DNA of 44,483 nt from a virus. The stretch is from the IMG/VR virus record IMGVR_UViG_3300029375_000005; one strand, given 5' to 3'. The notes beneath the pieces are model-generated. The model did not search any database and was not told the origin of the DNA. It saw only the letters and a program-made list of their open reading frames with translations. Of this stretch, positions 2,718 through 44,483 are shown in pieces. Each line of letters begins with the position of its first letter. Positions within the stretch are counted from its first letter, which is position 1. Position numbers and translations under genes: made by a program.

Positions 2718-3946
2718 CAGTCAATCCCCTTTGCTGTTTTATAGCGTTTTGCCGCTCCTCTGGCTTTAGCGGCGTTCTGGCGGTTCCACTTCGCGATCAT
2801 GAGCCGGTCTTGCAGTTCCCTCAGATCGTTCTGCTTGCAGTAATCTTTATATGTAGCATTTTGTTTCTGTAAAAGATAAGACTTCCGGTCAAGGTCTTGT
2901 TGGAGGGCAAATCTTGTCTGTTCGTCCTTGCAGTTATCAACCGCCGATTGCAGTCCAAGAACCTCTCTCTTCGTTTTGCGGATTCTTCGCTCATAAGTGC
3001 GTTGTCGTTGTTCTTTTTCATACTGCTTTCCTTTGTCGGCTTTATCCTGTGCTGATAGTTCTGCATAGGGATTGAATTCCCCGTCACTCGCCCCAAAACT
3101 ATGCCGGCAGTTGACCCCTGATAGTCCACTTGCCGTTCCATATCCGGTCAATGAGAAAGGTGGAAATTTCTTACTCTTGCCAGAACGAGAGTATATCTTG
3201 CCTTGCCAAAACGAGTGATTTCCCGGATTCTCGCCGCCGTCACCCGTCCTCGCTCCTATGTGCGCACTGACCAGAACTAAATCCCAGTCCATTTCTTCCA
3301 TGCGTTTTAGGGATATATCTCCCGTAGCCTGTGCCACACCAGTTCTGACAGAACGCGCAACTGCTGTTTCAATCGTGTCTTTTCTGCCAGATGGATATGT
3401 GACGGTAGCACCATCACTCACAACGTTATTGACTGCCTCTTTGATGGCTTGCGTATACCCAACCGCCCCAGTCATCACATGGTTATATGCAAGGTCGCAT
3501 TGCTCAATGTAGAGTCTCTGAGCGGCACTTGCGGTTGTTCTTGTAAAGTTCTTCCACTCTCCCATGGTCGCAAGCATATTCCGCTCCATGAGTCTTATCA
3601 TAGCTGGAGACTGTTCGAGCGGTACAGGGCTTAATCCTGCCGCCTTGTATACCTTGTCATCATAGTTCATTGCGGTGATTCCGGCATCTTCAAACGCTTC
3701 AAGAAGTTCCTGCTGTTCACGTTTGGTATATCTGGATAATTCTGCCAGAATGTCCTCTAGCAGTACACCGGATTCCTGTAGCGTTCTGATTCTCCACGCA
3801 TCAGCATTGGTCAGAATATAATCCTCACCTCTGCCGATTCTTGCCATCATCCGCGACACGATTTCAGAGATGATATACTGATGCAGTTCCTCTGCTATCT
3901 GTTCACTGCCCTCTGTTATCCGGCGTAAATATTCTGGGCTTAACAT
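2717..3946 (-). CDS. Minor head protein, Mu F / SPP1 gp7-like head morphogenesis protein
   Basis: 409 aa located directly after the portal gene. Typical MuF core (SGVNCRHSF) and a basic C-terminal tail. Confidence 0.85.
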   Translation of the reverse strand: MLSPEYLRRITEGSEQIAEELHQYIISEIVSRMMARIGRGEDYILTNADAWRIRTLQESGVLLEDILAELSRYTKREQQELLEAFEDAGITAMNYDDKVYKAAGLSPVPLEQSPAMIRLMERNMLATMGEWKNFTRTTASAAQRLYIEQCDLAYNHVMTGAVGYTQAIKEAVNNVVSDGATVTYPSGRKDTIETAVARSVRTGVAQATGDISLKRMEEMDWDLVLVSAHIGARTGDGGENPGNHSFWQGKIYSRSGKSKKFPPFSLTGYGTASGLSGVNCRHSFGASDGEFNPYAELSAQDKADKGKQYEKEQRQRTYERRIRKTKREVLGLQSAVDNCKDEQTRFALQQDLDRKSYLLQKQNATYKDYCKQNDLRELQDRLMIAKWNRQNAAKARGAAKRYKTAKGID

Positions 3947-3948
3947 AA

Positions 3949-5394
3949 CTATTCATCTCCAAACAGTTTTGGTTCGTCTGGCTGAGCTTCTTTGACCATT
4001 GCTTTCGCTTCTTCCTCAGTCATTCCCTCAAATTTTACAAAATACAACCATGCCGGTACCTTGCCAGTGGTCACATACTGCCACCATCTTGCACGGTCGT
4101 TTTCTCGCACATACAGGATGTCTCCAAAATCATAATTGACTTCATAAGCTCCGACTGGTGCAAGCCCGTACAGGTCAGCGTAGACGTTCAATGCGTAAAT
4201 AACTTCATCCAGACAGGATTCCAGTTTGTCCCTTACATCTTTGATGAACTGCACTGTCCTCTGCTGTTCTGCTTCTACTCCCGTAGCCGTCTGAATACCG
4301 CTAGATTCGTTAAAAACAAAGTACCCATTGGAGAATCCAATCTTGTACCCCAACTGGCTTAAAAGGGCATTTATGCCGCTTATACGAGTATCTGTGTTGA
4401 GTTGTGGATTGATTTCTTGATAAAACTCTTTCTCGTCCTGTCCGAATACATTCTTAACAAAATGTGGTAAGCTCATCTCGTTCCGTCTGTTCTCCATGCT
4501 CTGTGGTGACATAGCTGATACAGGCGTGCCGCTTGGCATCAGTAGTCTATCATCTGCCAGAACAATCTTCTGAGAATCAAAAATCTCTCCGGCATTACGG
4601 CTGTATGCAATGTCCAAATCCTTTAATTCCTCAATGGCTTCGGCAAATATCGGCAAGCCCAGTGGCGTACTGATATCCACATTGTTCGCCTGCGGTGTTC
4701 GGAGTATTCCGTACAGAGGTCCATCTAGCTTCTCGCCATTTGCTTTAAGTATCGGCGGTGTATCTGTCATGAGGTCGGCCCACTTGGTCTGTTTAAGGTC
4801 AATCTTATCACCGATTGACTGAGGGGATTTTGATACATAGGCTCTATTAGAAACGTAGTACGGATAGGTCGTCACGCCATCCACGGTAGTCTCAACAAAT
4901 CTATGATATTCAAGCCGTGTATAGTATTTCCGTCCAACAGTATAAGAATCCTTGAATATGATTCCCTTAATTTCCTGATTATCATAGTCCACGATCATCA
5001 CATCTGCCGGAGTAAATACGTCAATGCTTTCACCATTTGGCTTAATAAATACTGTTCCATAAGCACAGCCATATTCTACCCAGTGACGGATTTGAAAATA
5101 TACCTTGTCGATCTGTTCCTGTAGCCACGTAGCCCTTGCAGAACCGTCTATCTGAATGCCGATCGCCAGCGTTGCGAGCCGAGCTGTTTCTGAGCAGACA
5201 GATTTAGCAAAATTGATCGTCTTGATATTATTCTTATCATCCAGCCATTCCGGCGCACCTCTGTAAATGTTCGCGCACCGGTTAATCAGCGATTCCATCT
5301 CTGGAAATTCTGCTGCCTGAATGTTGAAGTCCTCTTCGGCTTGTTTTTTGAATATCATATTAAACCACCTTTTTAGTGTTGTTATAAGTCCCAT
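3949..5394 (-). CDS. Portal protein
   Basis: 481 aa, size and position after TerL fit a portal. Alternative start at Met13 (5358) has a better SD (AAGGTGG). Confidence 0.85.
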   Translation of the reverse strand: MGLITTLKRWFNMIFKKQAEEDFNIQAAEFPEMESLINRCANIYRGAPEWLDDKNNIKTINFAKSVCSETARLATLAIGIQIDGSARATWLQEQIDKVYFQIRHWVEYGCAYGTVFIKPNGESIDVFTPADVMIVDYDNQEIKGIIFKDSYTVGRKYYTRLEYHRFVETTVDGVTTYPYYVSNRAYVSKSPQSIGDKIDLKQTKWADLMTDTPPILKANGEKLDGPLYGILRTPQANNVDISTPLGLPIFAEAIEELKDLDIAYSRNAGEIFDSQKIVLADDRLLMPSGTPVSAMSPQSMENRRNEMSLPHFVKNVFGQDEKEFYQEINPQLNTDTRISGINALLSQLGYKIGFSNGYFVFNESSGIQTATGVEAEQQRTVQFIKDVRDKLESCLDEVIYALNVYADLYGLAPVGAYEVNYDFGDILYVRENDRARWWQYVTTGKVPAWLYFVKFEGMTEEEAKAMVKEAQPDEPKLFGDE

Positions 5395-6635
5395 TATGCA
5401 CTGTAACCTCTCCTGTTAAACAACGGCTCATAAGCATATCTAAGTGCCGAGATTGCATGATCATCTCCGTCAGGATAACCACTTATTACATTTCCCTCTT
5501 TGTCCCGATCGTACTCATATTCTGTGATTTCTTTATATGCGTTCGGTGTTCGCTTCGGGTCAATGACTATAGTCTTTGTCTGTAAGAATTTGAAACCATA
5601 CTCGATACTTCCCGGTCCTTTGATTGCTCCTCTTGCAGGAAGTCCGGCATCCCGGAAGTCATTCACAGACTTAGGTTCCGCAGAATCACATATCATTGTG
5701 TAATCGTCATAGCCTTTTTTCTTGATCCAATCAGCAGTCTTAGAGTTGCTCCATTTATTTACATACAGCTCGTCAATCAGATATATCTTCTCTCTGGCAG
5801 AATCATAATAAGTTCGGAGATAGCAGAAGGCATCCGGGTACCATCCATAATCTACGCCAGCGAAAATGCGGTCCATGTGGCTGATCTCTTCGTCTGTAAT
5901 ATCTCTGATTTCGAGATATTCAAATACGTTTCCGCCGTCACCATTCGGGACGCCCAGGTATTCATGCTCATAGGCTTCTGGGCGAATCTGTTTGAGATGT
6001 TCGGCATCGTCAAAAAACTGTTGTCCAAGCCATTCCTTTGGAACCGTTCTGTAATCAGAAGAATGAACATATCTGTCGTCTCTCTGGATTAATACTTCCT
6101 CATTCATGAAGTTATGTCTTGTTTTTGGTGGGTTGAATGACATAAAAGTCCAGTAGTCTTTTCCACCTCGCATCGATGACTGCAAGATGCTTCGTACTTC
6201 TTCCATTCCGGTAAAAGTATCACATTCTTCCAGCCATGCAAAAGCAAAGTATCCGAATGGAGCTTTTAACGACTTTAATTTCATTCTGTCATCAACGCCA
6301 CGAAACATTATAGTCTGTCCAGTCGGCATATATGTTATTTTCATTGGGCTGACAGTACATTTAAAATCACCATCAAGATGCAATGCTGATATAGCAAATT
6401 GCATCTGTGAAAAAACGCTATCTCTTAATGTGTTCGCTGTTTTTCTGAATATGATACAATGCTTATCTCTATTCTCTTTTCTTGTCATTAGCAATATAAT
6501 GACAATGCTCACGAAAGAAGACTTGCAGCTTCCACGTCCACCTTTGAATACATAATAAGTATGTTTGTGTTCTAAAATATCTCTTAGCACATTATCGAAA
6601 TTATACGGAAATAAATCATCTGCGGATATTTTCAT
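5394..6635 (-). CDS. terL: Terminase large subunit
   Basis: Walker A FKGGRGSCKSS, an acidic Walker B region and a C-terminal nuclease-like region (DGDDHAISALRY). 413 aa. Confidence 0.95.
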   Translation of the reverse strand: MKISADDLFPYNFDNVLRDILEHKHTYYVFKGGRGSCKSSFVSIVIILLMTRKENRDKHCIIFRKTANTLRDSVFSQMQFAISALHLDGDFKCTVSPMKITYMPTGQTIMFRGVDDRMKLKSLKAPFGYFAFAWLEECDTFTGMEEVRSILQSSMRGGKDYWTFMSFNPPKTRHNFMNEEVLIQRDDRYVHSSDYRTVPKEWLGQQFFDDAEHLKQIRPEAYEHEYLGVPNGDGGNVFEYLEIRDITDEEISHMDRIFAGVDYGWYPDAFCYLRTYYDSAREKIYLIDELYVNKWSNSKTADWIKKKGYDDYTMICDSAEPKSVNDFRDAGLPARGAIKGPGSIEYGFKFLQTKTIVIDPKRTPNAYKEITEYEYDRDKEGNVISGYPDGDDHAISALRYAYEPLFNRRGYSA

Positions 6636-21992: not shown

Positions 21993-22168
21993 ATAAAAAA
22001 CCGCCCTGGCATTGGCGTACCGGGACGGCGTTTATACATCTCCGGAGAGATGCTATATTCTGGCAAAACATATTGTATCATCTTCGGAGCAGTCGAACAA
22101 GACAGAAAATTTGTTCGGCTGTTATTTTTATACCTAAAAACAGCTACATAAAGAAAAGAGGAATAAAA

Positions 22169-23347
22169 ATGGCGAAGAAAAGAAAGAAATATCCAAAATT
22201 GCCGAATAACTTCGGCTCTATTCGGTACCTTGGCAAGAACCGGAGAAACTGCTTCGCAGTGCATCCACCGGCTACACCGGATGATACTGGCAAACTAAAA
22301 CGTCCGCCGGCGATCTGCTACGTGGATGACTGGATAAAAGGCTTTACTGTCCTGACAGCTTACAAAGCCGGCACGTATCAACCAGGCATGGAGCGGACTC
22401 TTGAGGTATCCCCCACAACCGACATAGACACTCTTATAAGCCGCTTGATTGCCGACTACAATACAATCAAGGGTGTAGAGGATAAGCACCCGGAAATCAA
22501 GAAATTGACGTTCTCAGAGGTATATAAACAGTTTTATGCGTGGAAGTTCCCAAATGGGACAAAACTGTCATGCAGTTCAAGGGAAGCATATCGGACGGCT
22601 TACACGAACTGCACCGTTCTGCACAATCGCATATTCGAAGATTTAAAGGCTCCTGATATGCAAAAGGTTATTGATGATTGCAAGCTGAAAAAGCAAAGCC
22701 AGATGGCTATTTTAACTCTATTCAAGCAGATGTACAAATATGCCGTATACTCAGAAATTGTAACGGAAAATAAGGCGTTATATGTCCATGTTAATGCTGA
22801 TAATGACACCGAACATGGAACGCCATTTTCTGATCAGGAACTACAAACTTTATGGGATAATGCCAACGATCCAGAAGTGCAGCTCATTCTTATTATGTGC
22901 TATTCTGGTTGGAGAATTGGTGAAGTGTTAAAACTTACGACCAACTTGGAAGAGAAATACTTTCAAGGTGGAATCAAAACAAAAGCCGGTAAAAACAGAA
23001 TTGTTCCGATACATCCTGCCATATACCATTTTGCTGAACAGAAAGTGCTGGCACAAGATGGAAAACTATGTGTATATACTCAGCAACACCATAGAAAAGC
23101 GTTGTTCTATCCTACACTGGAACGTTTGGGAATAGTCGGAAATCCGAAACACACGCCGCACGATTGTCGACATACCTTTTCTGCGCTGTGTGAAAAATAC
23201 GGTGTCCGGGAGAATGACCGAAAGCGAATGCTCGGCCACTCTTTTGGTGGAGATGTTACAAACGCTGTGTACGGCCACAGAACACTGGAAGAACTCCGGA
23301 CAGAAATAGAAAAGATAAAAGTTCCATTTGTGACTAACTGTGACTAA
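22169..23347 (+). CDS. int: Tyrosine recombinase / phage integrase
   Basis: Catalytic motifs HTPHDCRHTFSA and LGHS....AVYGH near the C-terminus. Start set at MAKKRKKYPKLP (22169) with an AAGAGGA SD. Confidence 0.9.
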   Translation: MAKKRKKYPKLPNNFGSIRYLGKNRRNCFAVHPPATPDDTGKLKRPPAICYVDDWIKGFTVLTAYKAGTYQPGMERTLEVSPTTDIDTLISRLIADYNTIKGVEDKHPEIKKLTFSEVYKQFYAWKFPNGTKLSCSSREAYRTAYTNCTVLHNRIFEDLKAPDMQKVIDDCKLKKQSQMAILTLFKQMYKYAVYSEIVTENKALYVHVNADNDTEHGTPFSDQELQTLWDNANDPEVQLILIMCYSGWRIGEVLKLTTNLEEKYFQGGIKTKAGKNRIVPIHPAIYHFAEQKVLAQDGKLCVYTQQHHRKALFYPTLERLGIVGNPKHTPHDCRHTFSALCEKYGVRENDRKRMLGHSFGGDVTNAVYGHRTLEELRTEIEKIKVPFVTNCD

Positions 23348-23671: not shown

Positions 23672-25099
23672 TCATTTAGAAATTTCTGTAATTCTGGTGA
23701 ATGTTCCTTTTGGAATAAATTCAAAAACAAACCCTTCTGTCGGATGTGGGATGCGGATGAAATACCATTTCAGCCCCGAACTGTCTGTTTCTGTGTACTT
23801 CATCACCTCTACAACTGCACCTTTTTTTAACTGCGGAAACAGTTTTGACGGGCTGTTTTTGTTTGATTTTGTATAGCATTTTGTGTCCTTTTTGATCTGT
23901 GCAATATAGGCTCTGGTGTTCTGCTTTTTGGTTGTATCTGAGTCTGAAACTGACGTTGTATTTTTAACTAAACTGTAATTTGGAGTACAGAATTTTGTTC
24001 CGGGAAGGTTGCTGTTGTAGTAACTTTTCTGACATACGCCACCACCATTTGCGATAATTGTAGAGCCACCAGAAGTGTTTCCTTCGACTGTCCAGAATCG
24101 ATCTCCTGATACCTTTGTTACGATTCCGGTATGTGTAAATGTGCCATTTCGATAAAAAATAACAATATCTCCAATCTTCGGATTGCTGTTCAGGGTAAAC
24201 AAATCCGCCATTGTCGGACAGTAAACGTATGGCCAGTGCTTCAAAAGTTTCTTCGCTGTGTCTAAGCCGAATGCTTTCATGAAGCACCAACTCACGAATG
24301 CAGCGCACCATGGCTGCCTTTGATAATCCGGTTTAATATCTCGCCAGTATTTCGTATAATTATTTTCTCCGACATTTGCTGTCTTACTATCAAGCTGACT
24401 ATTGCTTGCCTTTTCAAGATATCCGGTTTCATTCTTTGCGATCTGGATTAATTTATCAATTGCTTTCATGTCTGTCTCCTCACTTTCCGGGAAATATGTT
24501 TTCAACGCATTATAAACAAATCTCTGTCTGTCCTTATATGCTCCCACCTGATTCCCTGTGTCCGTCTGGCAGGCTGCATAGAGATTATCAAGCGTATATG
24601 GCTTCTGAGTCTTTGCTAAAATCCTCGTTACTGCTCCCTGTCCGCCTTGGTGTCTAAAGTTCACGCACATAGCTTGCGCTCTGGCGTCTGTAACGCCCTG
24701 CTTAAGGGCTTCGTCTGCATAGGTGGATAACTGTTCATCCATAAGGCTATCTTGGCATTTAACGCCTAAATCGGACGAGATAAGAGCAACTATAGTGTCT
24801 GCGAGCTGTGATACCCTGGAAATATTAAAACATTCCCAGTTTGCGGTCTGGACCTGTTCCAAAAGTCTGACCTTGTCTATCTTCTTCCACTGTTCCGGGT
24901 CGGCATCGTAAATTCGTTCCAGAAGTGTTTTAGCTTCGATTCCGTACCACTGTCCCGCCCCGATTGTGATTGCGTGTTCTTCAGAAGAATTGGTGTAGGC
25001 TTCCGTGAAGTCCGAATAATCCTGCTGTCCGTAAACCTGTTCGCCAGTTTCGACCGCATAAATAATTTTCCTGAGAACTACTTTTTGATTATTTGTCAT
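23672..25099 (-). CDS. Multidomain endolysin: N-terminal lysozyme/transglycosylase-like domain, CHAP domain, C-terminal SH3-like wall-binding domain
   Basis: CHAP motifs QPWCAAFVSWCF, FTHTGIVTKV and TVEGNTS. C-terminal LKKGAVVEVMKYTETDSSGLKWYFIRI is SH3-like. The call for the N-terminal 200 aa (VETGEQVYG...) is weak. Confidence 0.85.
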   Translation of the reverse strand: MTNNQKVVLRKIIYAVETGEQVYGQQDYSDFTEAYTNSSEEHAITIGAGQWYGIEAKTLLERIYDADPEQWKKIDKVRLLEQVQTANWECFNISRVSQLADTIVALISSDLGVKCQDSLMDEQLSTYADEALKQGVTDARAQAMCVNFRHQGGQGAVTRILAKTQKPYTLDNLYAACQTDTGNQVGAYKDRQRFVYNALKTYFPESEETDMKAIDKLIQIAKNETGYLEKASNSQLDSKTANVGENNYTKYWRDIKPDYQRQPWCAAFVSWCFMKAFGLDTAKKLLKHWPYVYCPTMADLFTLNSNPKIGDIVIFYRNGTFTHTGIVTKVSGDRFWTVEGNTSGGSTIIANGGGVCQKSYYNSNLPGTKFCTPNYSLVKNTTSVSDSDTTKKQNTRAYIAQIKKDTKCYTKSNKNSPSKLFPQLKKGAVVEVMKYTETDSSGLKWYFIRIPHPTEGFVFEFIPKGTFTRITEISK

Positions 25100-25582: not shown

Positions 25583-28018
25583 TTAGAAACATAAGCAAGG
25601 GGCGAGGCTCCTTTCTTGACTGGCATCGGCGATGTTCGTATTCCCTGTCGCATTCACAACACAGAAGGACTCATTGGCACTGCGGCGAGGCGAACGCTCC
25701 CACCAAATCCCAGACGTATAAGAATTGCTAGTTCGTGGGCTTTTATACCTGTTTGCGGTCGCATTCTTAAAGTATTGATACTGTGTTCCTTCACCTCCAA
25801 AAGAATATGGAATGTCACCAAAAATTTCGATTTCAGATAGTAAGAACGCATAATCGTTTGAAGTCTTGATTGTACTACTCTGACCTCCCACAGATGTCAG
25901 CTTTTTAACCTGTTTCATCATGCTTTGGACATAAGCAGGTAAACATTTCTTGTACACATTATTACACCATGTACGTCTTTCACAACCTTCCCAACCGCCG
26001 CTATTCATATCTGAGCTATTCATATAACCACATTCATGAGATGCATCGAGAGAATTGTTATATTCTGTCGTAGTGTCTAAATACAGCAGGCGTTCCGTCT
26101 GAATTGTAATAGCGGCTTTGGCCTTGCCATTGATAGCAGTTACCAAGTCGTCATGTTCAATTCCGATGATCACATAAGCATAATCATTTGCTTTGTGTGA
26201 CTCACTCACGCCTGTTGCATCCATAGTATTGTGATGGATGGTTCTCTTGTCGCCAACCGCCCAATATTCGCCAATATTGATTTTACCTGCGTAGTGCGCT
26301 TTAATCATCCTTGCTATTTCAGCATCCGTTCCGTCAGCGAATGTGACAATCTTCAATTCCCCTGGTTCACCGAGAAGTCTGTTTCCTGTATCGTAGTTGT
26401 ATACGCCATCAGTGTTGTATGGGAACAGCACGAAGTAATATTGTTTGTCGCTTGTTAACCCTGTGACTGTATAGCCTGTGGTTTTGTATTTATCTCGAAC
26501 CGTATTATCAACCACAAGCGTTCCGTCATCTGGATTTGCAGGATAGCCCGTTTCTTTCATTACAAGTTTTGTGCCAGCCCATGTAGAAAATGTTGAGCCA
26601 CTGATTACCGTGTTTTCAGGGTCTTGCCATTTAATTGTGACAGATGTGTTTGCATTTTCAATTGTTGGGTTGTTTACGGGTTTAGGGGTAACGGTCACGC
26701 CTCCGCCTTTTGCGTGGAGTGTTCCGTCTTCGTCTATGAATGTTGTCTTACCGTCGGGCTTAACCTTGCCAAGAGTTTCAGTTGTAGCAATCGGGACAGT
26801 CGCATCACTTCCCCTGTCTCCTTTTGGCCCTTTTATGTTGACTGTTTCGGGATTGGTGATTCCATCTGTGTTGCTCCAGCTTATATTTCCATCGGTGTCC
26901 ACACTTGGGACGAATGTAGTGCCCTTGTCTCCTTTAGGCCCGGCATCCCCAGCCTCTCCCTTTTCTCCTCGCGGCCCAGTATCTCCTTTTGCGCCCGTAT
27001 CGCCTTGCGGTCCGGTAATATTTACTGTCTGGGGGTTTTCAAGTCCCCCGTCATTACTCCAACTTATATTTCCTCTGCTGTCTACAACAGGAGTAAAGGT
27101 GATTCCTCGCACGCCAGCATCGCCTTGCTCGCCTTTTGGACCAACTGGTCCCTGTGGACCTTGCAGCCCAGTATCGCCTTTTAGACCCTGTATTCCCTGC
27201 TCTCCTTTTTCTCCGGGGTCTCCTTTTATGCCCTGCGGTCCCGGGTCGCCCTTTGGCCCTTGCGGACCAACTGGTCCCTGCGGACCTTGAGGCCCTTGAA
27301 TCCTGCCAGCATTGTTCCAATTCGCGCCGTCGAAAACCCACATTTCTCCGTCTATTAAATATGCATCGTTCTTCTCTGCGCTTAAAGGGAGGTCTGCCTC
27401 AGATTCTTTTGTACCAAGGATATTAAGAGATGTTCCATCATTTCCTTGTTCACCCTTTTCTCCTTGTGGGCCTTGTGGACCTTGTGGACCAACATCTCCT
27501 TTTTCACCTTGTGGTCCCTGCGGACCTTGAGGCCCTATAATATTACCAACATTTTCACTATCACCATCTGAAAATGTTATTGTCAAATTTCCATCTGTGT
27601 CGATACTGACCGCTGTGATAGAGATACCCCTTAGTGATTCTTTCTGCTCGGGTGTCAGCGATTCAAATGCTACGGTGCCATCCGCACCCTTTTCTCCCGG
27701 ATCACCTTTATCTCCTTTTTCACCCCTTGGACCCTGCGGGCCAGCAGGACCCTCTGCGCCTTTCTCTCCTTTATCTCCTTTTTCGCCTTTTGGACCCTGC
27801 GGGCCAACAAATTCTCCGGCATTGACCATCTCTGAAATATCCTCAATGGAACACAATCGTCTTACATCATTAGCCGCAAATGCAATGTATAAGGCTTTGC
27901 CAGATGGAACAGAAGGGTCATTGCCAAGAATCGCAACGGGCTCTCCAGGACGAATTTTCGATGTATCAAAATCAGCGTACATACCGCGCCGGAATTGTAT
28001 TGTATATGTATTGGCCAT
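25583..28018 (-). CDS. Collagen-like tail fibre / receptor-binding protein (811 aa)
   Basis: Multiple G-X-Y runs ([40 protein letters not shown]...), three related beta modules (..D.DGN.....S.....N....VNI.GP.G), and a C-terminal globular region ending WWERSP... Confidence 0.85.
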
Positions 28019-38986: not shown

Positions 38987-39262
38987 TCACTCTTTCTGCA
39001 TTGCCTGCTTAATAACCTGATTCACGCCAGTTGCCGACAATCCGTTAAACATACCGACCGCAACCGCTGTGATATAATCCGTTGCCGGGAAGTCCGGGAT
39101 AACTCCCATCCCGACAGCTCCGAGAATGCCACCAATAACCGCCATGATTACCGGAATCCATTCATCAGAGATTCTTTTTGATGCTTTACAGCCCATTCCT
39201 ACGATATAGCATATCATAACGATTGCTATGCATGAACCTAGTGTTGAAATGTCCATAATCAT
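38987..39262 (-). CDS. Holin-like membrane protein (91 aa, 2-3 TM, charged C-terminus)
   Basis: TM1 LGSCIAIVMICYIVGMGC, TM2 WIPVIMAVIGGILGAVGMGVI, TM3 ITAVAVGMFNGLSATGV, tail NQVIKQAMQKE. Resembles Gram-positive phage holins of the IPVI..G..G...GvNQi.KQ type. Confidence 0.6.
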   Translation of the reverse strand: MIMDISTLGSCIAIVMICYIVGMGCKASKRISDEWIPVIMAVIGGILGAVGMGVIPDFPATDYITAVAVGMFNGLSATGVNQVIKQAMQKE

Positions 39263-40037: not shown

Positions 40038-41204
40038 TCATTTTGCTGTTACGCTTGCACTTCCGGCATTCAGCGCTTTGTATGTTCCATCACACTCAAC
40101 CACTGTAATCTTCTGCCCGGTTGCTGCCTTAATGTCGGCTTTTCCGTCCCATGTAGTCCAGTTTCTGAGATTCTGGCCATAAGTTACAGCTGTTTCAGAT
40201 GCACCAACTTTGTACTTGTACACATTGCCAGCGTTTTCTTTAGTCGGATTTACAGTGATTTTTGTATCACCAGTTGCTGTTCCTTCCGCAGATGTTACTG
40301 CCAGAGTGCCGAGCGTTGGTGTTTCGTCAATGGTAATTACTGCAATTGCATCAATGTACTCTGCAAAAAGAGTAAGTCCCATAACCGCAAACGCTTCGGA
40401 TACTGCTGTGTGGTAGTTGCCCTGTGTATGGAATCCGATCAGGTTTGTTTCGCCAGATACGGTATACACAAGACCTGCTCTCGCAAAGTCAGACTCGTTC
40501 GGGTCTACATAGTAAAGTACGATGTTCTCAACAGGGGTAGCAATAACCTGTCCTCTCGGAATCTCGCTGTCGGACAGTAAGAAGATTGTATTGAATCCCA
40601 TAAAGTCCTTCATGTACTGGAATCCGAACTGATTCTGAATAGTGATCTCAGCTGCTCCGAGATATTCATATACGTCCAGAATGTTGACAAATCCAACAAC
40701 GCCAGTCACATTTCTGTGCATCTGTTTAAATTTGTTTTCAACACGACCCTTAGCCATTGCCAGAGCCATCTGGAATGTTGTTTCTGTGGAAGTAAGTGTA
40801 CCGGTTTTCAGATAGTCATAGAATCTGCCGGTAACATCAGTCTGAAGCTGGAAAAGAAACTCGTCATCAGTCATCTGAACAGCGTTCTCATAACCGTGGT
40901 CCTTGATTGCTTCGATAGATACAGCCTTTGCGTACTTTTCGATAGTCATTTCCGCATAGGTCTTTTCTTTTACGGTAAACTTGCTGTAAGGGATTTCCTC
41001 ACCCTCACCAACTTTTCCACTCTGTAAAGTACCCTCTGCGTATTTGGACTTGAGTACAGCACCCGGCTGCTTTTTGATAGGTCTCATGATACCCAGAATA
41101 TCACGTAAGTGCTGCCAGTTTCTTTCGAATCTGGTAACAAAGTCAATCTCACGTGCCGTGACATGAATATCATTAGTCATAATAAGATTTGTTTTTGCTG
41201 GCAT
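40038..41204 (-). CDS. Major capsid protein with C-terminal Ig-like domain
   Basis: 388 aa after the scaffold gene. The C-terminal roughly 90 aa (LAVTSAEGTATGDTKITVNP...KITVVECDGTYKALNAGSASVTAK) looks like a Big_2-type Ig domain. Confidence 0.85.
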   Translation of the reverse strand: MPAKTNLIMTNDIHVTAREIDFVTRFERNWQHLRDILGIMRPIKKQPGAVLKSKYAEGTLQSGKVGEGEEIPYSKFTVKEKTYAEMTIEKYAKAVSIEAIKDHGYENAVQMTDDEFLFQLQTDVTGRFYDYLKTGTLTSTETTFQMALAMAKGRVENKFKQMHRNVTGVVGFVNILDVYEYLGAAEITIQNQFGFQYMKDFMGFNTIFLLSDSEIPRGQVIATPVENIVLYYVDPNESDFARAGLVYTVSGETNLIGFHTQGNYHTAVSEAFAVMGLTLFAEYIDAIAVITIDETPTLGTLAVTSAEGTATGDTKITVNPTKENAGNVYKYKVGASETAVTYGQNLRNWTTWDGKADIKAATGQKITVVECDGTYKALNAGSASVTAK

Positions 41205-41281: not shown

Positions 41282-41914
41282 TCACTGGAATAACTGGATA
41301 TTCTGAGCGATTGCAGCCTGTCTCTCGGACGGGTCTTTGATTGCTTCGATATCTTTTTTGGTCATACTTCCCGGTGTCTGCTGCTGTCCAACGTGAGTGG
41401 TAAATCTTGCCTGATTCTGCTGAGCCTGCTGCTGAGATTCATCCACAAAAGCGGATGCGTCAGACTGTTTCATCTGTTCGATCAGGTCGTTTAATCCAAG
41501 GATTTTGCCATCTTTCAGCTTCAATCCGGCTTCTTTGATGTCTGCCATAACAGACTTCTTTGCTGCTTCGCTGGAAAACTTAACATCATCGAGTGCCGCT
41601 TTCAGAGCATCTGAGAAATCTCTGTCGTAGATTTTTGCGTTGAACTCTTTTTCTGCGTCCTCGGCTTTTTTCTTCCATCCAGCAAGCTCTGTCTGAATGT
41701 TTTCCGGGTCGATACCGTCAAAACCTTTTAAGGTTTCTTCTGCTGTCTCAGCACGTTCTTTCCAGTTGTCACGTTCACCCTCGACTTTTAACAGAGTTTT
41801 CGCTACTTCCTTTGCATTCTTGTAATTCTCAGAGAGTGCTTTCTTTACATCTGCCTGTTTATCCTCCGGGATTTCAATTCCAAATGATTTTAAAGTGTCA
41901 ATAAGTTTCTGCAT
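41282..41914 (-). CDS. Scaffolding protein (GP20-like)
   Basis: 210 aa, helical, K/E-rich (FGIEIPEDKQADVKKAL...). Lies immediately upstream of the MCP gene. Confidence 0.85.
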   Translation of the reverse strand: MQKLIDTLKSFGIEIPEDKQADVKKALSENYKNAKEVAKTLLKVEGERDNWKERAETAEETLKGFDGIDPENIQTELAGWKKKAEDAEKEFNAKIYDRDFSDALKAALDDVKFSSEAAKKSVMADIKEAGLKLKDGKILGLNDLIEQMKQSDASAFVDESQQQAQQNQARFTTHVGQQQTPGSMTKKDIEAIKDPSERQAAIAQNIQLFQ

Positions 41915-41991
41915 AACATCCTCCTGGTCGTGTTTATTGACCTGCCGCCGCAGGTAAATGGATTAAGCCAGTTAGACCACTGGCAGGGTAA

Positions 41992-42063
41992 TCGGAAAGG
42001 CAGGAATCGAACCTACGGCACATAGCTTACAATGCCATTGCTCTACCACTGAGCTACATTCCA
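41992..42063 (-). tRNA. tRNA-Thr (anticodon UGU), acceptor stem imperfect
   Basis: Reverse complement: TGGAATG TA GCTC AGTGGTA GAGC A ATGGC ATTGTAA GCTAT GTGCC GTAGG TTCGATT CCTGC CTTTCCG A. D, anticodon and T arms are canonical. The acceptor has U1.G72 and a U6.U67 mismatch. No encoded CCA. Confidence 0.65.
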
Positions 42064-42194
42064 TGCCGCCTGTAACGGACAGTTAAAAAAAACTGAGTTG
42101 AGTTTCACCTTTTTCGCTATAGCGTAAACCCACCTGAGACATAGACCACCTGTATACAAACAGCTTAACTCTAAGCGGATTAAAGCAGAACGCC

Positions 42195-42263
42195 CGGAAT
42201 CGAACCGGAGACCAGAGCGCGACTCTGTCAGTTTTCCACTAGCGTACATTCCACATAACCCGG
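42195..42263 (-). ncRNA. Aberrant tRNA-like element (canonical T arm, non-canonical D/anticodon region)
   Basis: Reverse complement: TGGAATG TACGCTAGTGGAAAACTGA CAGAG-TCGCG-CTCTG GTC TCCGG TTCGATT CCGGG CGTTCTG C. The acceptor needs three G.U pairs. The 5' 9-mer TGGAATGTA is identical to that of tRNA-Thr. No D stem. The anticodon-position hairpin has a 5-nt (or open 7-nt GUCGCGC) loop. Confidence 0.4.
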
Positions 42264-42402
42264 ATTCCCGGGTTAGCAAGGTGTTTAACGTGTCATGCCT
42301 GCCACGAGTTGTTTCGGATATTTATTTCTTTTTTAAAAGAAAAGTATGAATAACAAAAACCTTAATCAAGGAGGTGAGCCATCTTGCGTGCCAGATGGCA
42401 AA

Positions 42403-42452
42403 TACGCACGACAGGATTCGAACCTGTTCAACTTTCCGTTAAAGCGTGCGTA
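42403..42452 (-). ncRNA. Truncated tRNA-like minihelix (8-bp acceptor-like stem, small hairpin, T arm)
   Basis: Reverse complement: TACGCACG CTTT-AACGG-AAAG TTGA ACAGG TTCGAAT CCTGT CGTGCGTA. No D arm and no 7-nt anticodon loop with U33. Followed by the hairpin GCCATCT-ggcacgca-AGATGGC. Confidence 0.4.
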
Positions 42453-42546
42453 CCAGCTACTAAATTAAAGAAAGGAGGATTAAAACGAAAATGTCAAAAA
42501 CAACCGTTTTACTTGTGCTTCCTGCTGCACAATTACATTATAACAG

Positions 42547-42555
42547 ATTTCTTTT
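42547..42555 (-). promoter_or_regulatory. Possible extended -10 (TGTTATAAT) upstream of the tRNA-like cluster
   Basis: The reverse complement of 42547-42555 reads TGTTATAAT. No good -35 element. Confidence 0.3.
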
Positions 42556-42583
42556 AACTACCTCTCTACCACTTTTTGTGTTT

Positions 42584-43138
42584 TTAGAGCATATCACGGA
42601 GTTTTTCTACGTATCTCTTGACAAGATCACGTTCTTCCCGGCACTCTGCATCCTTGGACATATCACTCATTTCTGTTGTAAGTTCGTCCAGATGTTCTTC
42701 CAGAGCGGCAAGCATCTTTCTTTTGCAGTCCTCAGACTTGCCGGAACGATAGCTCTGTTTCTGCGTCATGTAATCGTCATAAGCATCTCGTCCGTCAGAG
42801 CGGCTGTAATGTCCTCTAACATAATGCTCACCACGTCTGGCATAAGAACTGCCTCGGTCATAATCCGGCATCATTCTGCCGTCATTTGCGCTGTATCTCC
42901 CCATGCTGTCGCGCTTTCTTCCGCGTTCGCTGTAATCGTCATTGTATCCGCCACGCATCTCATCAAGGACAGTGTTATAGTACTCCACTTTCTTGTCCCA
43001 GTACTGCGTGTTCTTTATGTCTTTGTACATATCAATCAGTTTGTATGTCATTTCCAGATTTCCAGTGGTCAGTCCATTATCAGCGATTTTGGACAGTTCG
43101 TCTTCAATTCTTGCACATAAGTCTTTAATGTCTCTCAT
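42584..43138 (-). CDS. Hypothetical protein with helical ends and an R/G/Y/D-rich low-complexity centre (184 aa)
   Basis: SD GGAGGTG 6 nt upstream of the start. Centre reads RGGYNDDYSERGRKRDSMGRYSANDGRMMPDYDRGSSYARRGEHYVRGHYSRSDGRDAYDDY. Confidence 0.7.
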   Translation of the reverse strand: MRDIKDLCARIEDELSKIADNGLTTGNLEMTYKLIDMYKDIKNTQYWDKKVEYYNTVLDEMRGGYNDDYSERGRKRDSMGRYSANDGRMMPDYDRGSSYARRGEHYVRGHYSRSDGRDAYDDYMTQKQSYRSGKSEDCKRKMLAALEEHLDELTTEMSDMSKDAECREERDLVKRYVEKLRDML

Positions 43139-43149
43139 AATCGCACCTC

Positions 43150-43572
43150 CTACGCTTCTCTGGTCACAACAATGTTTGCGTTCGCAACAGAAATTGCCTG
43201 ATCGCTTGTGTTTTCTATTGCGACATTAACGCAACATCCACAAGGAACGTCAATATAGATACCTGCGGACACATTATTGTACTGATTTACTGCTGCCGGT
43301 GTGGAAATCATCTGAGAAGAAAGAACCGGCTCACCAGAAATTGCAATTGCCAGAGAAATAGCTCCGACAGTACCGCCTGTTGGAATTGCGATATTACCAG
43401 AAAAATCCACGAAGAATCTCGCTTTACACTGGTTAGTCAGTCCTCTCAGAGTGATGATTCCACTTCCCTCTCTGTGCTGAATGCAGTTAGAACCCTTAAC
43501 TGCTGTGTTTGAAAATACTACGTTTCCATTTGCTGCTACAGTCTGAGCAGCTACATTTGTAAATTCTGCCAT
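43150..43572 (-). CDS. Small beta-rich protein, possible BclA-C-terminal/C1q- or Ena-like jelly roll with CGCC motif (140 aa)
   Basis: Tracked ORF trimmed to MAEFTNV (ATG at 43572, AAAGGAG 8 nt upstream). Alternating beta pattern: AAQTVAANGNVVFSNTAV...ITLRG...ARFFVDFSGNIAIPTGGTVGAISLAIAISGEPV...IYIDVPCGCCVNVAIENTSDQAISVANANIVVTREA. Confidence 0.65.
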   Translation of the reverse strand: MAEFTNVAAQTVAANGNVVFSNTAVKGSNCIQHREGSGIITLRGLTNQCKARFFVDFSGNIAIPTGGTVGAISLAIAISGEPVLSSQMISTPAAVNQYNNVSAGIYIDVPCGCCVNVAIENTSDQAISVANANIVVTREA

Positions 43573-43685
43573 AAAGAATACTCCTTTCATATAACAAAAA
43601 GGGCAGGTATCAGCCTGCCCATCTGTGTAATACGGCATAAGCCGACATCCGAAATCAATCGAAAGATACTCTCGATATGAAGTTG

Positions 43686-44465
43686 TCAGCAATTACATCC
43701 AGTGTTGCATCCGCATCCGTAATATGTGTTCGGGTTCGGTACCTGGTAAGCCGGAATCGGTGCTGGATTGATTGCATTAATGAGCTGCTGTGTCTGAGAA
43801 GCCATTGCAGTTGTGAGAAGTGCGCTCTGGCGATCCTGAGATGCAGCACGTCTGAGATCATTATTCTCAGCCTGCAGACTAGAAATCTTTTCATTGCAAA
43901 GATAGTCAAGAATGGCTCTTGTTCCTGCATTCTGACTGTCAATAATGTCTCTTGTGTTACTGTTCATTGTGTTCTGCAATGCGCAGGTATTCTGTGCCAT
44001 ATTGTAGTTTACGCCCTGGATAGCTTCCCTGGTTTCACAACAGCAGTTCGCAAGCTGTGCCTGTAAAGCGTTGGCGTTCTGCATATTCGCTACAGTATCA
44101 GCATTGATTGCCTGCTGGATTCCAAAGCCGGTCTGCATGATGTTTGTGTTGATTCCATTGAATCCAGTAAGCATACCGTTATTCATGGCATAAAAGCCAT
44201 CGCACAGGCCACTGTTGATTCCGTCAAGTTTGCTGATTACTGCGGAGTTATCGAATCCTCTCTGAATGTCTGCCTGGGTAGCTGCTGTGGCTGTATATCC
44301 GCCGCCGTTGCCATTATTGCCCCAGCCGTTGTTTCCCCATCCGAAGAAAGCAAAAATGAATAAAACAATAATCCACCAGCTACCATCTCCGCCAAACATG
44401 CCGTCATTATTTCTACCGTTTCCAGTAGCAGCGGCAATATCTGCTAAGCTATAATTTCCATCCAT
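43686..44465 (-). CDS. Membrane-anchored Gly/Asn/Gln-rich protein with Cys clusters (259 aa)
   Basis: SD AAGGAG 8 nt upstream. N-terminus GGDGSWWIIVLFIFAFFGWGNNGWGNNGNGGG (one TM), a long N/Q/A-rich region containing NCCCETREA, and the extreme C-terminus YYGCGCNTGCNC. Confidence 0.7.
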   Translation of the reverse strand: MDGNYSLADIAAATGNGRNNDGMFGGDGSWWIIVLFIFAFFGWGNNGWGNNGNGGGYTATAATQADIQRGFDNSAVISKLDGINSGLCDGFYAMNNGMLTGFNGINTNIMQTGFGIQQAINADTVANMQNANALQAQLANCCCETREAIQGVNYNMAQNTCALQNTMNSNTRDIIDSQNAGTRAILDYLCNEKISSLQAENNDLRRAASQDRQSALLTTAMASQTQQLINAINPAPIPAYQVPNPNTYYGCGCNTGCNC

Positions 44466-44483
44466 AATATAATCTCCTTTTTT
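44363..44483. repeat. Direct terminal repeat, copy 2 (identical to 1..121)
   Basis: See copy 1. Confidence 0.9.

What the first reader, a model, noticed from the sequence alone, without database searches (positions are those of the whole stretch)
42584..44465. Five-gene low-complexity / cysteine-cluster cassette inserted between MuF and the scaffold gene, spanning the junction
Established: in SPP1/Sfi11-like head modules, portal and MuF are normally followed directly by scaffold and MCP.

Seen: about 5.2 kb intervenes here (41915..44362 plus 1..2716 in circular coordinates). Its core is five co-directional, SD-led, tightly spaced ORFs of 156, 73, 259, 140 and 184 aa, with unusual compositions:
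- Q/P-rich and Q/M-rich stretches.
- A GWGNNGWGNNGNGGG repeat next to a single TM segment.
- Recurrent Cys clusters: NCCCE, and YYGCGCNTGCNC at the extreme C-terminus of the 259-aa protein, plus PCGCCV in the 140-aa protein.
- An R/G/Y/D-rich disordered core in the 184-aa protein.

Inference: this combination resembles building blocks of Firmicutes spore coats, exosporia or appendages. The parallels are YjcZ-like Gly-rich TM peptides, GerQ-like Q-rich N-termini, BclA-CTD or Ena-like beta-sandwiches with Cys connectors, and CotG-like basic Tyr-rich repeats. Alternatively it could be a disulfide-cross-linked capsid decoration or fibre set. I do not recognise either arrangement as a described phage module.
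Basis: partly seen in the sequence, partly recalled or inferred. Interest (0 to 1): 0.8.

Follow-up and report, generated by a model that had tools for sequence, protein, structure and literature searches.

The report
Mobile cysteine-rich accessory module in gut phages
The five odd-looking genes are real and strongly conserved, but they are not head-assembly genes: they are the core of a self-contained gene module of unknown function that moves as a unit among thousands of phages of gut and rumen Firmicutes, and only one of its proteins (a BclA/C1q-like trimer fold) resembles anything known.

Summary
Observation confirmed. The window is a circular about 44.36-kb temperate siphovirus with a 121-bp assembly overlap; exact copies of two of the proteins occur in a Blautia wexlerae isolate. 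The five minus-strand ORFs (156, 73, 259, 140, 184 aa) have the stated motifs and compositions and evolve under strong purifying selection (dN/dS 0.01-0.08).

They are the core of a conserved module: p156 > p73 > p259 > (p140 or an unrelated Cys-rich protein) > p184. A small sigma-region-4-like HTH gene and a Cys/His protein often accompany it. The order holds in 87 divergent loci. The module sits after the endolysin and before the integrase, between MuF and scaffold, or after the receptor-binding protein. It is therefore a mobile accessory unit, not part of the head pathway.

- p140 models confidently as a C1q/TNF jellyroll closest to Bacillus exosporium proteins (F-BclA, ExsF/BxpB, BclA).
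- p259 is a membrane-anchored helical protein with an invariant CCC motif and a C-terminal Cys cluster.
- The other proteins match nothing known.

A general spore-coat role is unlikely, because a complete copy sits in a lytic phage of non-sporulating Butyrivibrio. Function remains inferred. My best guess is a membrane-anchored, cross-linkable protein assembly made late in infection.

The parts
1802..2008 (-). p68: 68-aa sigma-70 region-4-like HTH protein. Frequent first gene of the module and its putative regulator.
   Evidence: Pfam Sigma70_r4 E=0.007; phrog_1190 'RNA polymerase sigma factor' E=4e-6; TIGR02937 E=2e-4. Homologues lie just upstream of the module in 56 of 87 loci.
1757..1790 (-). 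Terminator-like hairpin (AAGCCCC...GGGGCTT) plus T-run, directly after p68.
   Evidence: Read from the sequence. A hairpin plus T-run follows p68 in 32 of 41 loci that have an intergenic gap of at least 25 nt.
2328..2717 (-). p129: 129-aa protein in which D19-C20, H100 and D111 are invariant within module loci and at least 90% conserved family-wide. Putative papain-like hydrolase or transglutaminase-like enzyme. A facultative companion of the module.
   Evidence: phrog_3754. Conserved residues. Adjacent to the module in 44 of 87 loci, before p156 or after p184. Also occurs alone in Bacillus Tsamsa-like phages and in Lak megaphages. 1451 representative clusters. No Pfam or PDB match.
2026..2331 (-). 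p101: N-terminal transmembrane segment plus coiled coil. Occasional companion of the module.
   Evidence: Hydropathy maximum 2.21 at residues 9-27. Homologues upstream of p68 in 7 loci.
858..919 (-). Promoter-like region of the module: three phased T-tracts (ATACTTTTT / ATACTTTTTT / AACTTTTT, about 11-nt spacing), then ATGCAAAAATATAAT (a -10-like element) 20 nt before the p156 start codon.
   Evidence: Read from the sequence. A T-run followed by a -10-like hexamer lies within 300 nt upstream of the first module gene in 40 of 75 loci, against 9.4 +/- 2.8 in random windows. Similar sequences are visible in many loci.
371..841 (-). p156: Q/P-rich N-terminus, small beta-rich domain (residues about 40-100), and a C-terminal coiled-coil helix with a charged tail.
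   Evidence: phrog_21718 E=3e-39. Family alignment. Only coiled-coil matches in PDB. Present in 78 of 87 loci. dN/dS 0.052.
157..378 (-). p73: 73-aa protein rich in Q, M and G.
   Evidence: phrog_22984 E=2e-26. Follows p156 in 78 of 87 loci. dN/dS 0.041.
43686..44465 (-). p259, the anchor protein of the module. It has an acidic N-tail, a transmembrane segment (about residues 29-42), a G/N/W-rich linker, two long helices with an invariant CCC motif between them, a PxP motif and a C-terminal Cys cluster. The 5' end is duplicated at 1..103 by the assembly overlap.
   Evidence: phrog_16490 E=6e-59. AF2 secondary structure: H30-40, H73-139, H146-232, but pLDDT only 45. CCC in 83 of 83 homologues and a C-terminal Cys cluster in 66 of 83. 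Invariant columns. dN/dS 0.020.
43591..43620 (-). GC-rich hairpin (GGGCAGG...CCTGCCC) plus T-run between p259 and p140. Putative leaky terminator or transcript-stabilising hairpin.
   Evidence: Terminator scan. The intergenic RNA folds at -41.1 kcal/mol, z=-4.8. A hairpin plus T-run occurs at this position in 31 of 57 loci, against 4 of 65 for the p73-p259 spacer.
43150..43572 (-). p140: stand-alone C1q/TNF/BclA-C-like jellyroll with conserved Cys residues (C30, C49, C113, C114).
   Evidence: phrog_20016 E=1e-61. AF2 pLDDT 90.1, pTM 0.83. Foldseek PDB and BFVD hits. Conserved columns. Present in 53 of 87 loci, replaced by the unrelated Cys-rich D' protein in 27.
42584..43138 (-). p184: helical N- and C-terminal segments flanking an R/G/Y/D/S-rich, probably disordered core that carries the RRDSMGRYS and YVRGHYSR motifs.
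   Evidence: phrog_28802 E=1e-63. Family alignment. No Pfam or PDB match. Present in 71 of 87 loci. dN/dS 0.010.
1..121 (.). Terminal direct repeat identical to 44363..44483. An assembly overlap showing that the contig is circular.
   Evidence: Exact-match test.

Best explanation
Shown: The five ORFs are the core of a conserved, horizontally mobile accessory module of tailed phages of gut and rumen Bacillota. In this genome it happens to sit between MuF and the scaffold gene. It is not part of the head-assembly line.

Supported by motifs only: The module looks like its own transcription unit. A small sigma-region-4-like HTH gene (p68) ends in a terminator. A promoter-like element with a -10 hexamer but no recognisable -35 follows, then p156, p73 and p259. 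A hairpin and T-run after p259 should lower expression of p140 and p184.

Inferred mechanism:
- p259 is the main product. It inserts in the cytoplasmic membrane with its acidic N-tail outside and its 200-residue helical, cysteine-rich part inside.
- The other products have no signal peptides. They are the two Q-rich oligomerising proteins p156 and p73, the C1q/BclA-like trimer p140 (or its Cys-rich substitute D'), and the Arg/Tyr-rich disordered protein p184. They assemble on p259 late in infection into a membrane-anchored protein layer or condensate. Its conserved cysteines can bind metal or cross-link once the cell lyses.
- This resembles how exosporium layers are built in principle, but it is not tied to sporulation.

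The confidence figure refers to the whole statement. That it is a real, mobile, non-head accessory module I hold at about 0.85. The assembly mechanism I hold at about 0.3.
For: Real genes: dN/dS 0.01-0.08. The families are very large: each homologue search returned about 8000 clusters at 90% identity with E<=0.001, the limit on candidates scored. The exact p184 sequence is on at least 1000 contigs.

Unit character: the same gene order holds in 87 loci whose p259 identity falls to about 30%.

Mobility:
- The nearest upstream large gene has endolysin-type domains in roughly 15 of 68 loci and is MuF in 5.
- The nearest downstream large gene is an integrase or recombinase in about 10, a scaffold gene in 5, and host metabolic genes in several.
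- Annotated examples: Ceridwen, Dulem 33, 35, 36 and 39, and bajarodcaudo 2 and 5.

Decoupled from the capsid: 134 phage records share the window's MCP family. None of those listed outside the module-bearing gut, lemur and rumen phages (Streptococcus, Staphylococcus and Enterococcus phages, and Dorea and Flavonifractor phages at 54-60% identity) appears among the module-protein hits. Dulem 36 and 39 carry the module without that MCP.

Transcription signals.

p259 architecture and invariant Cys.

Acidic N-flank: mean 2.6 D/E against 0.5 K/R. No hydrophobic segment in p156, p73 or p184.

p140 fold.
Against: - No expression, localisation or interaction data exist.
- The p259 model is of low confidence (pLDDT 45), and its topology rests on a weak charge bias.
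- The promoter and terminator calls are motif matches.
- The strict extended -10 pattern was found in only 11 of 77 loci.
- No protein except p140 has any detectable relative of known function, so the assembly model rests on composition and co-occurrence.
- In this genome the module lies inside the late head operon and could simply be read through with it.
Confidence: 0.4

Rival explanations
1. Spore-surface conversion. The module is expressed in the mother cell of a sporulating lysogen and adds an exosporium- or coat-like layer or nap to the spore. In this reading p140 acts like ExsF/BxpB or a BclA head, p259 like a YjcZ-type anchor, and the Q-rich and Arg/Tyr-rich proteins as cross-linkable matrix.
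For: - The closest solved folds to p140 are all Bacillus exosporium proteins.
- Cys-rich proteins without signal peptides are typical of spore outer layers (established knowledge of ExsY/CotY and CdeC).
- The phage is temperate: it has an integrase at 22073..23347.
- Its host, Blautia wexlerae, is described as spore-forming (PMC9229247).
- The module has moron-like signals and often sits between the lysis genes and the integrase.
Against: - A complete, intact module occurs in Ceridwen, which has been observed only in the lytic cycle (PMC7372960). Its host, Butyrivibrio fibrisolvens, is a rumen bacterium, a group lacking many sporulation genes (PMC11170972).
- Other carriers are assigned to Lachnospira, Subdoligranulum, Ruminococcus bicirculans, Erysipelotrichaceae and Mollicutes-like MAGs. 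By my own knowledge most of these do not sporulate.
- There is no match to the YjcZ, GerQ, CotG or Ena (DUF3992) models.
- The upstream element looks sigma-A-like rather than sigma-E/K-like. This was judged by eye and not tested rigorously.
- The module is always co-directional with the late genes upstream (60 of 72 loci).
Confidence: 0.15
2. Virion accessory structure. The proteins are capsid decoration, head fibres or another particle-bound set, cross-linked through cysteines.
For: - Late-operon position next to the scaffold and MCP genes in this genome, in Dulem 35 and in bajarodcaudo 2.
- C1q-like domains are common in phage fibres and in giant-virus collagen-like proteins.
- No signal peptides.
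- Selection as strong as on structural genes.
- Present in a lytic phage.
Against: - p259 has a canonical transmembrane segment in 70 of 83 homologues, which does not fit a non-enveloped particle.
- The module is found with and without the window's MCP family, and close capsid relatives lack it.
- The nearest stand-alone structural relatives of p140 come from contigs labelled Sipho-, Myo- and Podoviridae.
- p140 is replaced by an unrelated protein in 27 of 87 loci.
- There is no match to PHROG head, decoration or tail families.
Confidence: 0.15
3. Lysis or egress accessory. A membrane-acting set that works with holin and endolysin, for example in timing or envelope disruption.
For: - The most frequent upstream neighbour is an endolysin-type gene.
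- Holin or XhlA-like small membrane proteins (p101 and relatives) are often adjacent.
- p259 is a membrane protein with a long helical part.
- The module is co-directional with late genes.
Against: - There is no similarity to any PHROG lysis family.
- This phage has its own holin-like gene (38987..39262) and endolysin (23672..25099) elsewhere.
- The end of the late operon is also the classical insertion site for unrelated cargo.
- Five proteins with low-complexity and C1q-like parts have no precedent in lysis.
Confidence: 0.1
4. Prophage-expressed membrane function, such as superinfection exclusion or another host-protective or host-modifying trait.
For: - Own promoter-like and terminator-like signals.
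- Position between the lysis genes and the integrase in many prophages.
- A membrane-anchored main product.
Against: - No PADLOC match apart from a coiled-coil-level ZorA hit at E=0.008.
- Known exclusion proteins are single small genes.
- The module is kept in a phage seen only in the lytic cycle.
- No enzymatic or nucleic-acid-binding domain is detectable.
Confidence: 0.1

Closest known systems
ExsFA/BxpB (ExsF) and the C-terminal domains of BclA and F-BclA of the Bacillus cereus-group exosporium (PDB 7r1m, 8d02, 9h3d, 1wck, 9h38)
   Same: p140 has the same C1q/TNF-type jellyroll fold, with TM 0.65-0.78 and Foldseek probability 1.0. Like ExsFA/BxpB it is a stand-alone domain of about 140-170 residues, has no signal peptide and contains cysteines.
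   Different: - Sequence identity is only 11-17%.
- The window protein does not reach Pfam BclA_C at all. A homologue scores 30 bits against a cut-off of 38.
- It has no collagen-like region and no exosporium leader.
- It is encoded in phages, including one that infects a non-sporulating host.
Morons of temperate phages: independent transcription units inserted between essential genes (Hendrix and colleagues; my own knowledge)
   Same: - Promoter-like and terminator-like signals flank the unit.
- It is present or absent among phages with related structural genes.
- It sits at different positions, most often at the end of the late operon.
   Different: - It comprises five to seven genes kept in fixed order across very divergent phages.
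- It is also present in a phage seen only in the lytic cycle.
- It is co-directional with late genes, so expression from the prophage is not shown.
Stand-alone C1q-like proteins of uncultivated gut phages in BFVD (e.g. A0A8S5U2A1, A0A8S5S925 'BclA protein')
   Same: They have the same fold and size, with TM 0.79-0.88. They are probably members or sisters of the p140 family.
   Different: All are uncharacterised, so they add no function.
Phage phi29 membrane-anchored organisers p16.7 and p1 (my own knowledge)
   Same: They are phage proteins with an N-terminal membrane anchor followed by coiled-coil regions, and they build assemblies on the inner face of the membrane.
   Different: - They are early genes tied to DNA replication.
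- They share no sequence similarity with the module.
- They have no cysteine clusters.
- They have no partner set like p140, p156, p73 and p184.

Membership tests
BclA_C / C1q-TNF jellyroll superfamily (p140) | Ten-stranded jellyroll fold superposable on BclA-CTD or C1q heads | tested here: met
   AF2 pLDDT 90.1. Foldseek PDB hits to 9h38, 9h3d, 8d02, 7r1m, 1wck, EDA and C1q at E 2e-7 to 1e-4.
BclA_C / C1q-TNF jellyroll superfamily (p140) | Sequence match to Pfam PF18573 above its gathering score | tested here: not met
   The window protein gives no hit at E<=0.1. The Dulem 35 homologue scores 30.3 bits against a cut-off of 38, E=4e-7. Profile against PDB sequences: no BclA hit.
BclA-type exosporium glycoprotein | N-terminal exosporium leader plus collagen-like GXX repeats before the C-terminal domain | tested here: not met
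   p140 is 140 aa and the jellyroll starts at residue 2. It has no GXX repeats (sequence).
BclA / ExsF-type trimer | Homotrimer formation | not testable with these tools
   Only monomer prediction was available.
Ena endospore appendage subunits (DUF3992) | Pfam DUF3992 match and an N-terminal Cys connector | tested here: not met
   No Pfam hit for p140 or for 27 D' proteins. Ena structures are not among the top Foldseek hits for p140. D' has N-terminal cysteines, but no structure could be predicted for it.
YjcZ-family sporulation protein (N-terminus of p259) | Match to the NCBIfam/TIGRFAM model for tiny Gly-rich transmembrane proteins | tested here: not met
   No NCBIfam hit at E<=0.1. p259 is 259 aa, not a tiny peptide.
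GerQ (p156, p73) | Match to Pfam Spore_GerQ | tested here: not met
   No Pfam hit. The resemblance is limited to Q-richness.
CotG/ExsB-like coat proteins (p184) | Tandem basic Ser/Tyr-rich repeats | tested here: not met
   No substantial tandem repeat in the gene. The core is Arg/Asp/Tyr/Gly-rich and variable in length, without repeat units.
Phage head decoration, scaffold or internal head proteins | Match to a PHROG or Pfam head family, and linkage to one capsid type | tested here: not met
   All five proteins hit PHROGs of unknown function only. Module presence is decoupled from the MCP family.
Moron-type accessory unit | Own promoter and terminator; variable presence and position among related phages | tested here: inconclusive
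   Variable position and presence are shown. Promoter and terminator are motif-level only. Expression was not tested.
Known anti-phage defence systems | Match to a PADLOC model | tested here: not met
   Only a coiled-coil-level ZorA hit, E=0.008.
Lysis cassette (holin, endolysin, spanin) | Match to a PHROG or Pfam lysis family | tested here: not met
   None for the five proteins. The phage's own holin-like and endolysin genes are elsewhere.
Papain-like or C39 peptidase, or transglutaminase (p129) | Sequence or profile match to a family of known fold; Cys-His-Asp triad | tested here: inconclusive
   D19-C20, H100 and D111 are invariant among 37 module-locus sequences and at least 90% conserved across 71 representatives, which fits a triad. 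No Pfam or PDB match.

The most novel reading that the evidence does not exclude
The module builds a spore-coat-like protective matrix for the phage itself. In this reading a membrane-anchored, cysteine-, tyrosine- and glutamine-rich assembly forms in the dying cell. It cross-links when the lysate meets oxygen and occludes progeny virions or the cell ghost. Phages of strict anaerobes would thereby survive passage between hosts. This would be a bacterial-virus counterpart of baculovirus occlusion bodies, assembled from exosporium-like parts.
Probability: 0.06. Interest if true: 0.9.

Novelty: categorically new. Interest (0 to 1): 0.62.

Why it matters
This is one of the most widespread conserved multi-gene units in phages of human-gut Lachnospiraceae and Oscillospiraceae that has no assigned function.
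- Each core protein has thousands of sequence clusters.
- The exact p184 sequence is seen on at least 1000 public contigs.
- Selection on it is as strong as on capsid genes.

The module moves between unrelated phage backbones, so it must give a portable benefit. Its make-up has no described counterpart in phage biology: a membrane anchor with invariant cysteine clusters, an exosporium-type C1q fold, and three low-complexity proteins. A cultured phage (Ceridwen on Butyrivibrio fibrisolvens) and a cultured lysogen (Blautia wexlerae) carry it, so the question can be tested directly.

Tried and rejected
- **Family scans.** Pfam, NCBIfam, PADLOC and PDB-sequence searches, with single sequences and with family profiles, found nothing for p156, p73, p259, p184, D' or p129.
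- **p259 structure.** The AF2 run failed (pLDDT 45) because the allowed alignment was only 80-98% identical. I therefore ran no fold search on it.
- **p140 versus D'.** hhalign gave no relationship, probability 0.3%.
- **p129 domain partners.** The search over 1.84 billion representatives gave 1451 relatives, almost all single-domain. The ten longest carried no convincing Pfam domain; one had only sub-threshold hits. In Bacillus phage Kirov p129 is not next to any module gene, so I treat it as a facultative companion.
- **Promoter pattern.** A strict extended -10 pattern (TGnGAnAAT) was too narrow: 11 of 77 loci against about 5 expected. A looser pattern, T-run plus -10-like hexamer, was enriched.
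- **Double-glycine leader idea.** I considered a double-glycine leader in p259 cleaved by p129. I dropped it because the spacing of hydrophobic residues does not fit the known leader consensus and p129 is not always present.
- **Literature.** Searches found no description of the module.
Full report
**What the window is.** Bases 1-121 are identical to 44363-44483, so the contig is a circular genome of 44,362 bp with an assembly overlap. All late genes are on the minus strand, in this order:
- large terminase (6635..5394), portal (5394..3949), MuF-type minor capsid protein (3946..2717, Pfam Phage_min_cap2 E=5e-74);
- the region in question;
- scaffold (41914..41282, Pfam Phage_scaffold E=6e-22), major capsid protein (41204..40038), connectors and tail;
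- a collagen-repeat tail fibre (28018..25583) and an endolysin (25099..23672);
- an integrase on the other strand (22073..23347).

The exact p156 and p184 sequences are in a Blautia wexlerae isolate (MZT60359.1, MZT60355.1). The exact p184 is seen on at least 1000 public contigs. This is therefore a very common temperate phage of a human-gut Lachnospiraceae.

**Check of the observation.** The five ORFs, their Shine-Dalgarno sequences, the motifs and the compositions are as described. Against close relatives the median dN/dS values are:
- p156 0.052, p73 0.041, p259 0.020, p140 0.076, p184 0.010;
- for comparison, scaffold 0.068, MCP 0.069, MuF 0.041.

So these are genuine, strongly constrained proteins, including the low-complexity ones.

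Three corrections apply. The stated coordinates hold only three of the five genes. The 5' end of p259 is duplicated by the overlap. The 5.2-kb interval is a mosaic. Besides the five genes it holds:
- p129, a protein with conserved Cys, His and Asp residues;
- p101, with a transmembrane segment and a coiled coil;
- p68, a sigma-70 region-4-like HTH protein;
- a plus-strand three-ORF island with a 12/12 sigma-70 promoter;
- a tRNA-Thr with two tRNA remnants.

Close relatives carry different islands at the same spot.

**The five genes are the core of a conserved unit.**
- All five match PHROG families of unknown function at E from 1e-26 to 1e-63. None matches Pfam or NCBIfam.
- tblastn against GenBank phages found the genes together in uncultivated gut phages, in lemur and rodent faecal phages, and in one cultured phage, Butyrivibrio virus Ceridwen.
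- In Ceridwen the order is p68, p129, p156, p73, p259, p140, a homing-endonuclease-like gene, then a p184 homologue.
- I scanned one genome per GTDB species with a p259 profile, which gave 231 confirmed places, of which the best 80 were kept. I then built family profiles over those 80 loci plus 7 phage loci.
- Among the 87 loci, all chosen for p259, I found p156 in 78, p73 in 78, p140 in 53, an unrelated Cys-rich 127-139-aa protein (D') in 27, p184 in 71, p68 in 56 and p129 in 44.
- The order is always p156 > p73 > p259 > (p140 or D') > p184. p68 lies upstream. p129 lies either before p156 or after p184. Many of the missing cases are short contigs.

**The unit is mobile and not tied to the head module.**
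- In Dulem 35 and bajarodcaudo 2 it lies between the MuF-position gene and the scaffold or capsid genes, as in the window.
- In Ceridwen, Dulem 33 and bajarodcaudo 5 it follows the holin and endolysin.
- In Dulem 33 an integrase follows it. In Dulem 39 it follows an integrase. In Dulem 36 it follows the receptor-binding protein.
- Over the 68 loci I could score, the nearest large upstream gene carries endolysin-type domains in roughly 15 (Amidase_2, PG_binding_1, CHAP, SH3_3, GH25, Amidase_3, glucosaminidase, M23, CW_7) and is MuF in 5.
- The nearest downstream gene is an integrase or recombinase in about 10, a scaffold gene in 5, and host metabolic genes in several.
- Upstream neighbours are co-directional in 60 of 72 loci. 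Downstream neighbours are co-directional in only 35 of 70.
- The window's capsid family is shared with 134 phage records, among them Streptococcus, Staphylococcus and Enterococcus phages and close relatives such as Dorea phage DO134P1 and Flavonifractor phage Chenonceau. These do not appear among the module hits. Dulem 36 and 39 carry the module but not this capsid family.

**Signals.**
- A GC-rich hairpin with a T-run follows p68 in 32 of 41 loci and follows p259 in 31 of 57. It occurs in only 4 of 65 p73-p259 spacers.
- In the window these elements are at 1757-1790 and 43591-43620. The p259-p140 spacer folds at -41.1 kcal/mol, z=-4.8.
- A T-run followed by a -10-like hexamer lies upstream of the first module gene in 40 of 75 loci, against 9.4 +/- 2.8 in random windows.
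- The window has ATGCAAAAATATAAT 20 nt before the p156 start, preceded by three phased T-tracts.
- I read this as a separate transcription unit with an internal attenuator that favours p156, p73 and p259 over p140 and p184. These are motif matches, not measurements.

**The proteins.**
- *p140.* It models with pLDDT 90.1. Its best solved matches are the F-BclA C-terminal domain, ExsF, BxpB, ExsFA and BclA of the Bacillus exosporium, then EDA, 4-1BBL and C1q. In BFVD the best matches are stand-alone proteins of 130-143 aa from uncultivated Sipho-, Myo- and Podoviridae contigs. A 46%-identical homologue hits Pfam BclA_C below threshold.
- *p259.* It could not be modelled with confidence (pLDDT 45). 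The consistent features are a hydrophobic segment at about residues 29-42, two long helices, a CCC motif in 83 of 83 homologues, a C-terminal Cys cluster in 66 of 83, and a median of 11 cysteines. Its N-flank is acidic (mean 2.6 D/E, 0.5 K/R) and its C-flank slightly more basic. This weakly favours the large part being cytoplasmic, which fits the absence of signal peptides in the partners.
- *p156.* It has a Q/P/Y-rich head, a small beta-rich domain and a coiled-coil helix.
- *p184.* It has helical ends and a variable Arg/Tyr/Gly/Asp core with conserved RRDSMGRYS-type motifs.
- *D'.* It shows no relationship to p140 and matches nothing.
- *p129.* Its D-C, H and D residues are invariant within module loci and at least 90% conserved across the family. 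It has 1451 representative clusters and occurs alone in Bacillus and Lak phages. It has no assignable fold.

**What it most likely does.** The shown facts point to a portable function that acts in the infected or lysogenic cell rather than in head assembly:
- a mobile unit decoupled from the capsid type;
- a main product with a transmembrane segment;
- partners without export signals;
- oligomerising and low-complexity parts;
- conserved cysteine clusters;
- a C1q-type trimer, a fold whose known family members bind ligands or anchor fibres.

I infer a membrane-anchored multi-protein layer or condensate built late in infection. The cysteines would bind metal or cross-link after lysis.

**The rivals.**
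- *Spore-surface reading.* It keeps some weight because the p140 fold is exosporium-like and the window's host is called spore-forming (PMC9229247). It cannot be the general function. Ceridwen has a complete, intact module, has only been seen to grow lytically (PMC7372960), and infects a rumen Butyrivibrio; rumen Lachnospiraceae lack many sporulation genes (PMC11170972). Many other carriers are assigned to lineages that, to my knowledge, do not sporulate, although MAG assignments of phage contigs are unreliable.
- *Virion-decoration reading.* It is weakened by the membrane anchor, by the decoupling from capsid type and by the p140/D' replacement.
- *Lysis accessory or exclusion function.* Neither can be excluded, but neither has positive support beyond position.

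**Comparison with what is known.** The only family-level link is p140 to the BclA_C/C1q superfamily, at fold level. Membership in the YjcZ, GerQ, CotG, Ena, head-decoration, lysis and defence families was tested and not met. As genetic architecture the unit resembles a moron, but it is a fixed five-to-seven-gene set and is also present in a phage seen only in the lytic cycle. Literature searches found no description of it. I therefore rate it as lying outside known kinds of system, while stressing that its function is inferred and not shown.

Noticed in passing
window 1-121 and 44363-44483: An exact 121-bp terminal direct repeat, which is an assembly overlap. The true circular length is 44,362 bp, and the first 103 bases repeat the 5' end of the p259 gene.
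   Followed up: yes
window 919-1683 (+ strand): A three-ORF island lies antisense to the late operon. A perfect TTGACA-17-TATAAT promoter sits at 1169-1197. The first ORF resembles a ribbon-helix-helix protein, judged by eye. Close relatives have nothing here or a different three-gene island (L170), so the gap between p68/p101 and p156 is an insertion hot spot.
   Followed up: partly
window 41992-42451 (- strand): One intact tRNA-Thr (UGU) lies at 41992-42063. Upstream are two tRNA-like remnants: a T-arm-like GGTTCGATTCC at 42193-42209, and a 19-bit tRNA match at 42403-42451. This looks like a decayed tRNA array between the module and the scaffold gene.
   Followed up: partly
window 38987-39262 (- strand): A holin-family gene (phrog_1129; Pfam Phage_holin_5_2 in relatives) sits among the head-tail connector genes, about 14 kb from the endolysin at 23672-25099. 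Dulem 35 has the same arrangement.
   Followed up: no
L168, L169, L171 (close relatives), between portal and MuF: Relatives carry a large variable gene between portal and MuF that the window lacks. It is a 763-aa protein with a weak polysaccharide deacetylase hit, a 603-aa protein with a faint pectate-lyase-like hit, or a 434-aa collagen-repeat protein.
   Followed up: no
L081 9518-10312 (Ceridwen) and L083 8410-8961 (Dulem 33): Endonuclease genes are inserted inside the module: between p140 and p184 in Ceridwen (homing-endonuclease-like by eye, annotated hypothetical), and on the opposite strand between p73 and p259 in Dulem 33 (annotated endonuclease). The flanking module genes remain intact.
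   Followed up: partly
L085 10902-11321, L086 10813-11196, L087 7659-8063 and 24 further loci: A Cys-rich protein family of 127-139 aa (D', median 9 Cys, N-terminal MACKxxCKLC motif) replaces p140 at the same position in 27 of 87 loci. It has no detectable similarity to p140 or to any Pfam or PDB entry.
   Followed up: partly
L082 8057-8218, also L088, L089, L092, L093, L120, L135: In several module variants an extra conserved small ORF of about 50 aa (MFKDEVLEKIF...QS..VH..E.VLEE) lies between the promoter-like element and p156. Another small family (s76, about 76 aa) lies between p259 and p140/D' in most of its 8 loci.
   Followed up: no
window 2328-2717 (p129) and Bacillus phage Kirov L172 3989-4387: The p129 family has a conserved D-C...H...D pattern and 1451 representative clusters. 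It is spread over Bacillus Tsamsa-like phages, Geobacillus GBK2 and Prevotella Lak megaphages. Some depositors annotate it as 'putative peptidase', yet it has no Pfam family.
   Followed up: partly
window 37843-38484 (- strand): A 213-aa ORF matching phrog_940 ('nuclease') and phrog_8680 lies inside the structural gene block. DUF4417 proteins also appear just downstream of the module in Dulem 39 and one other locus.
   Followed up: no
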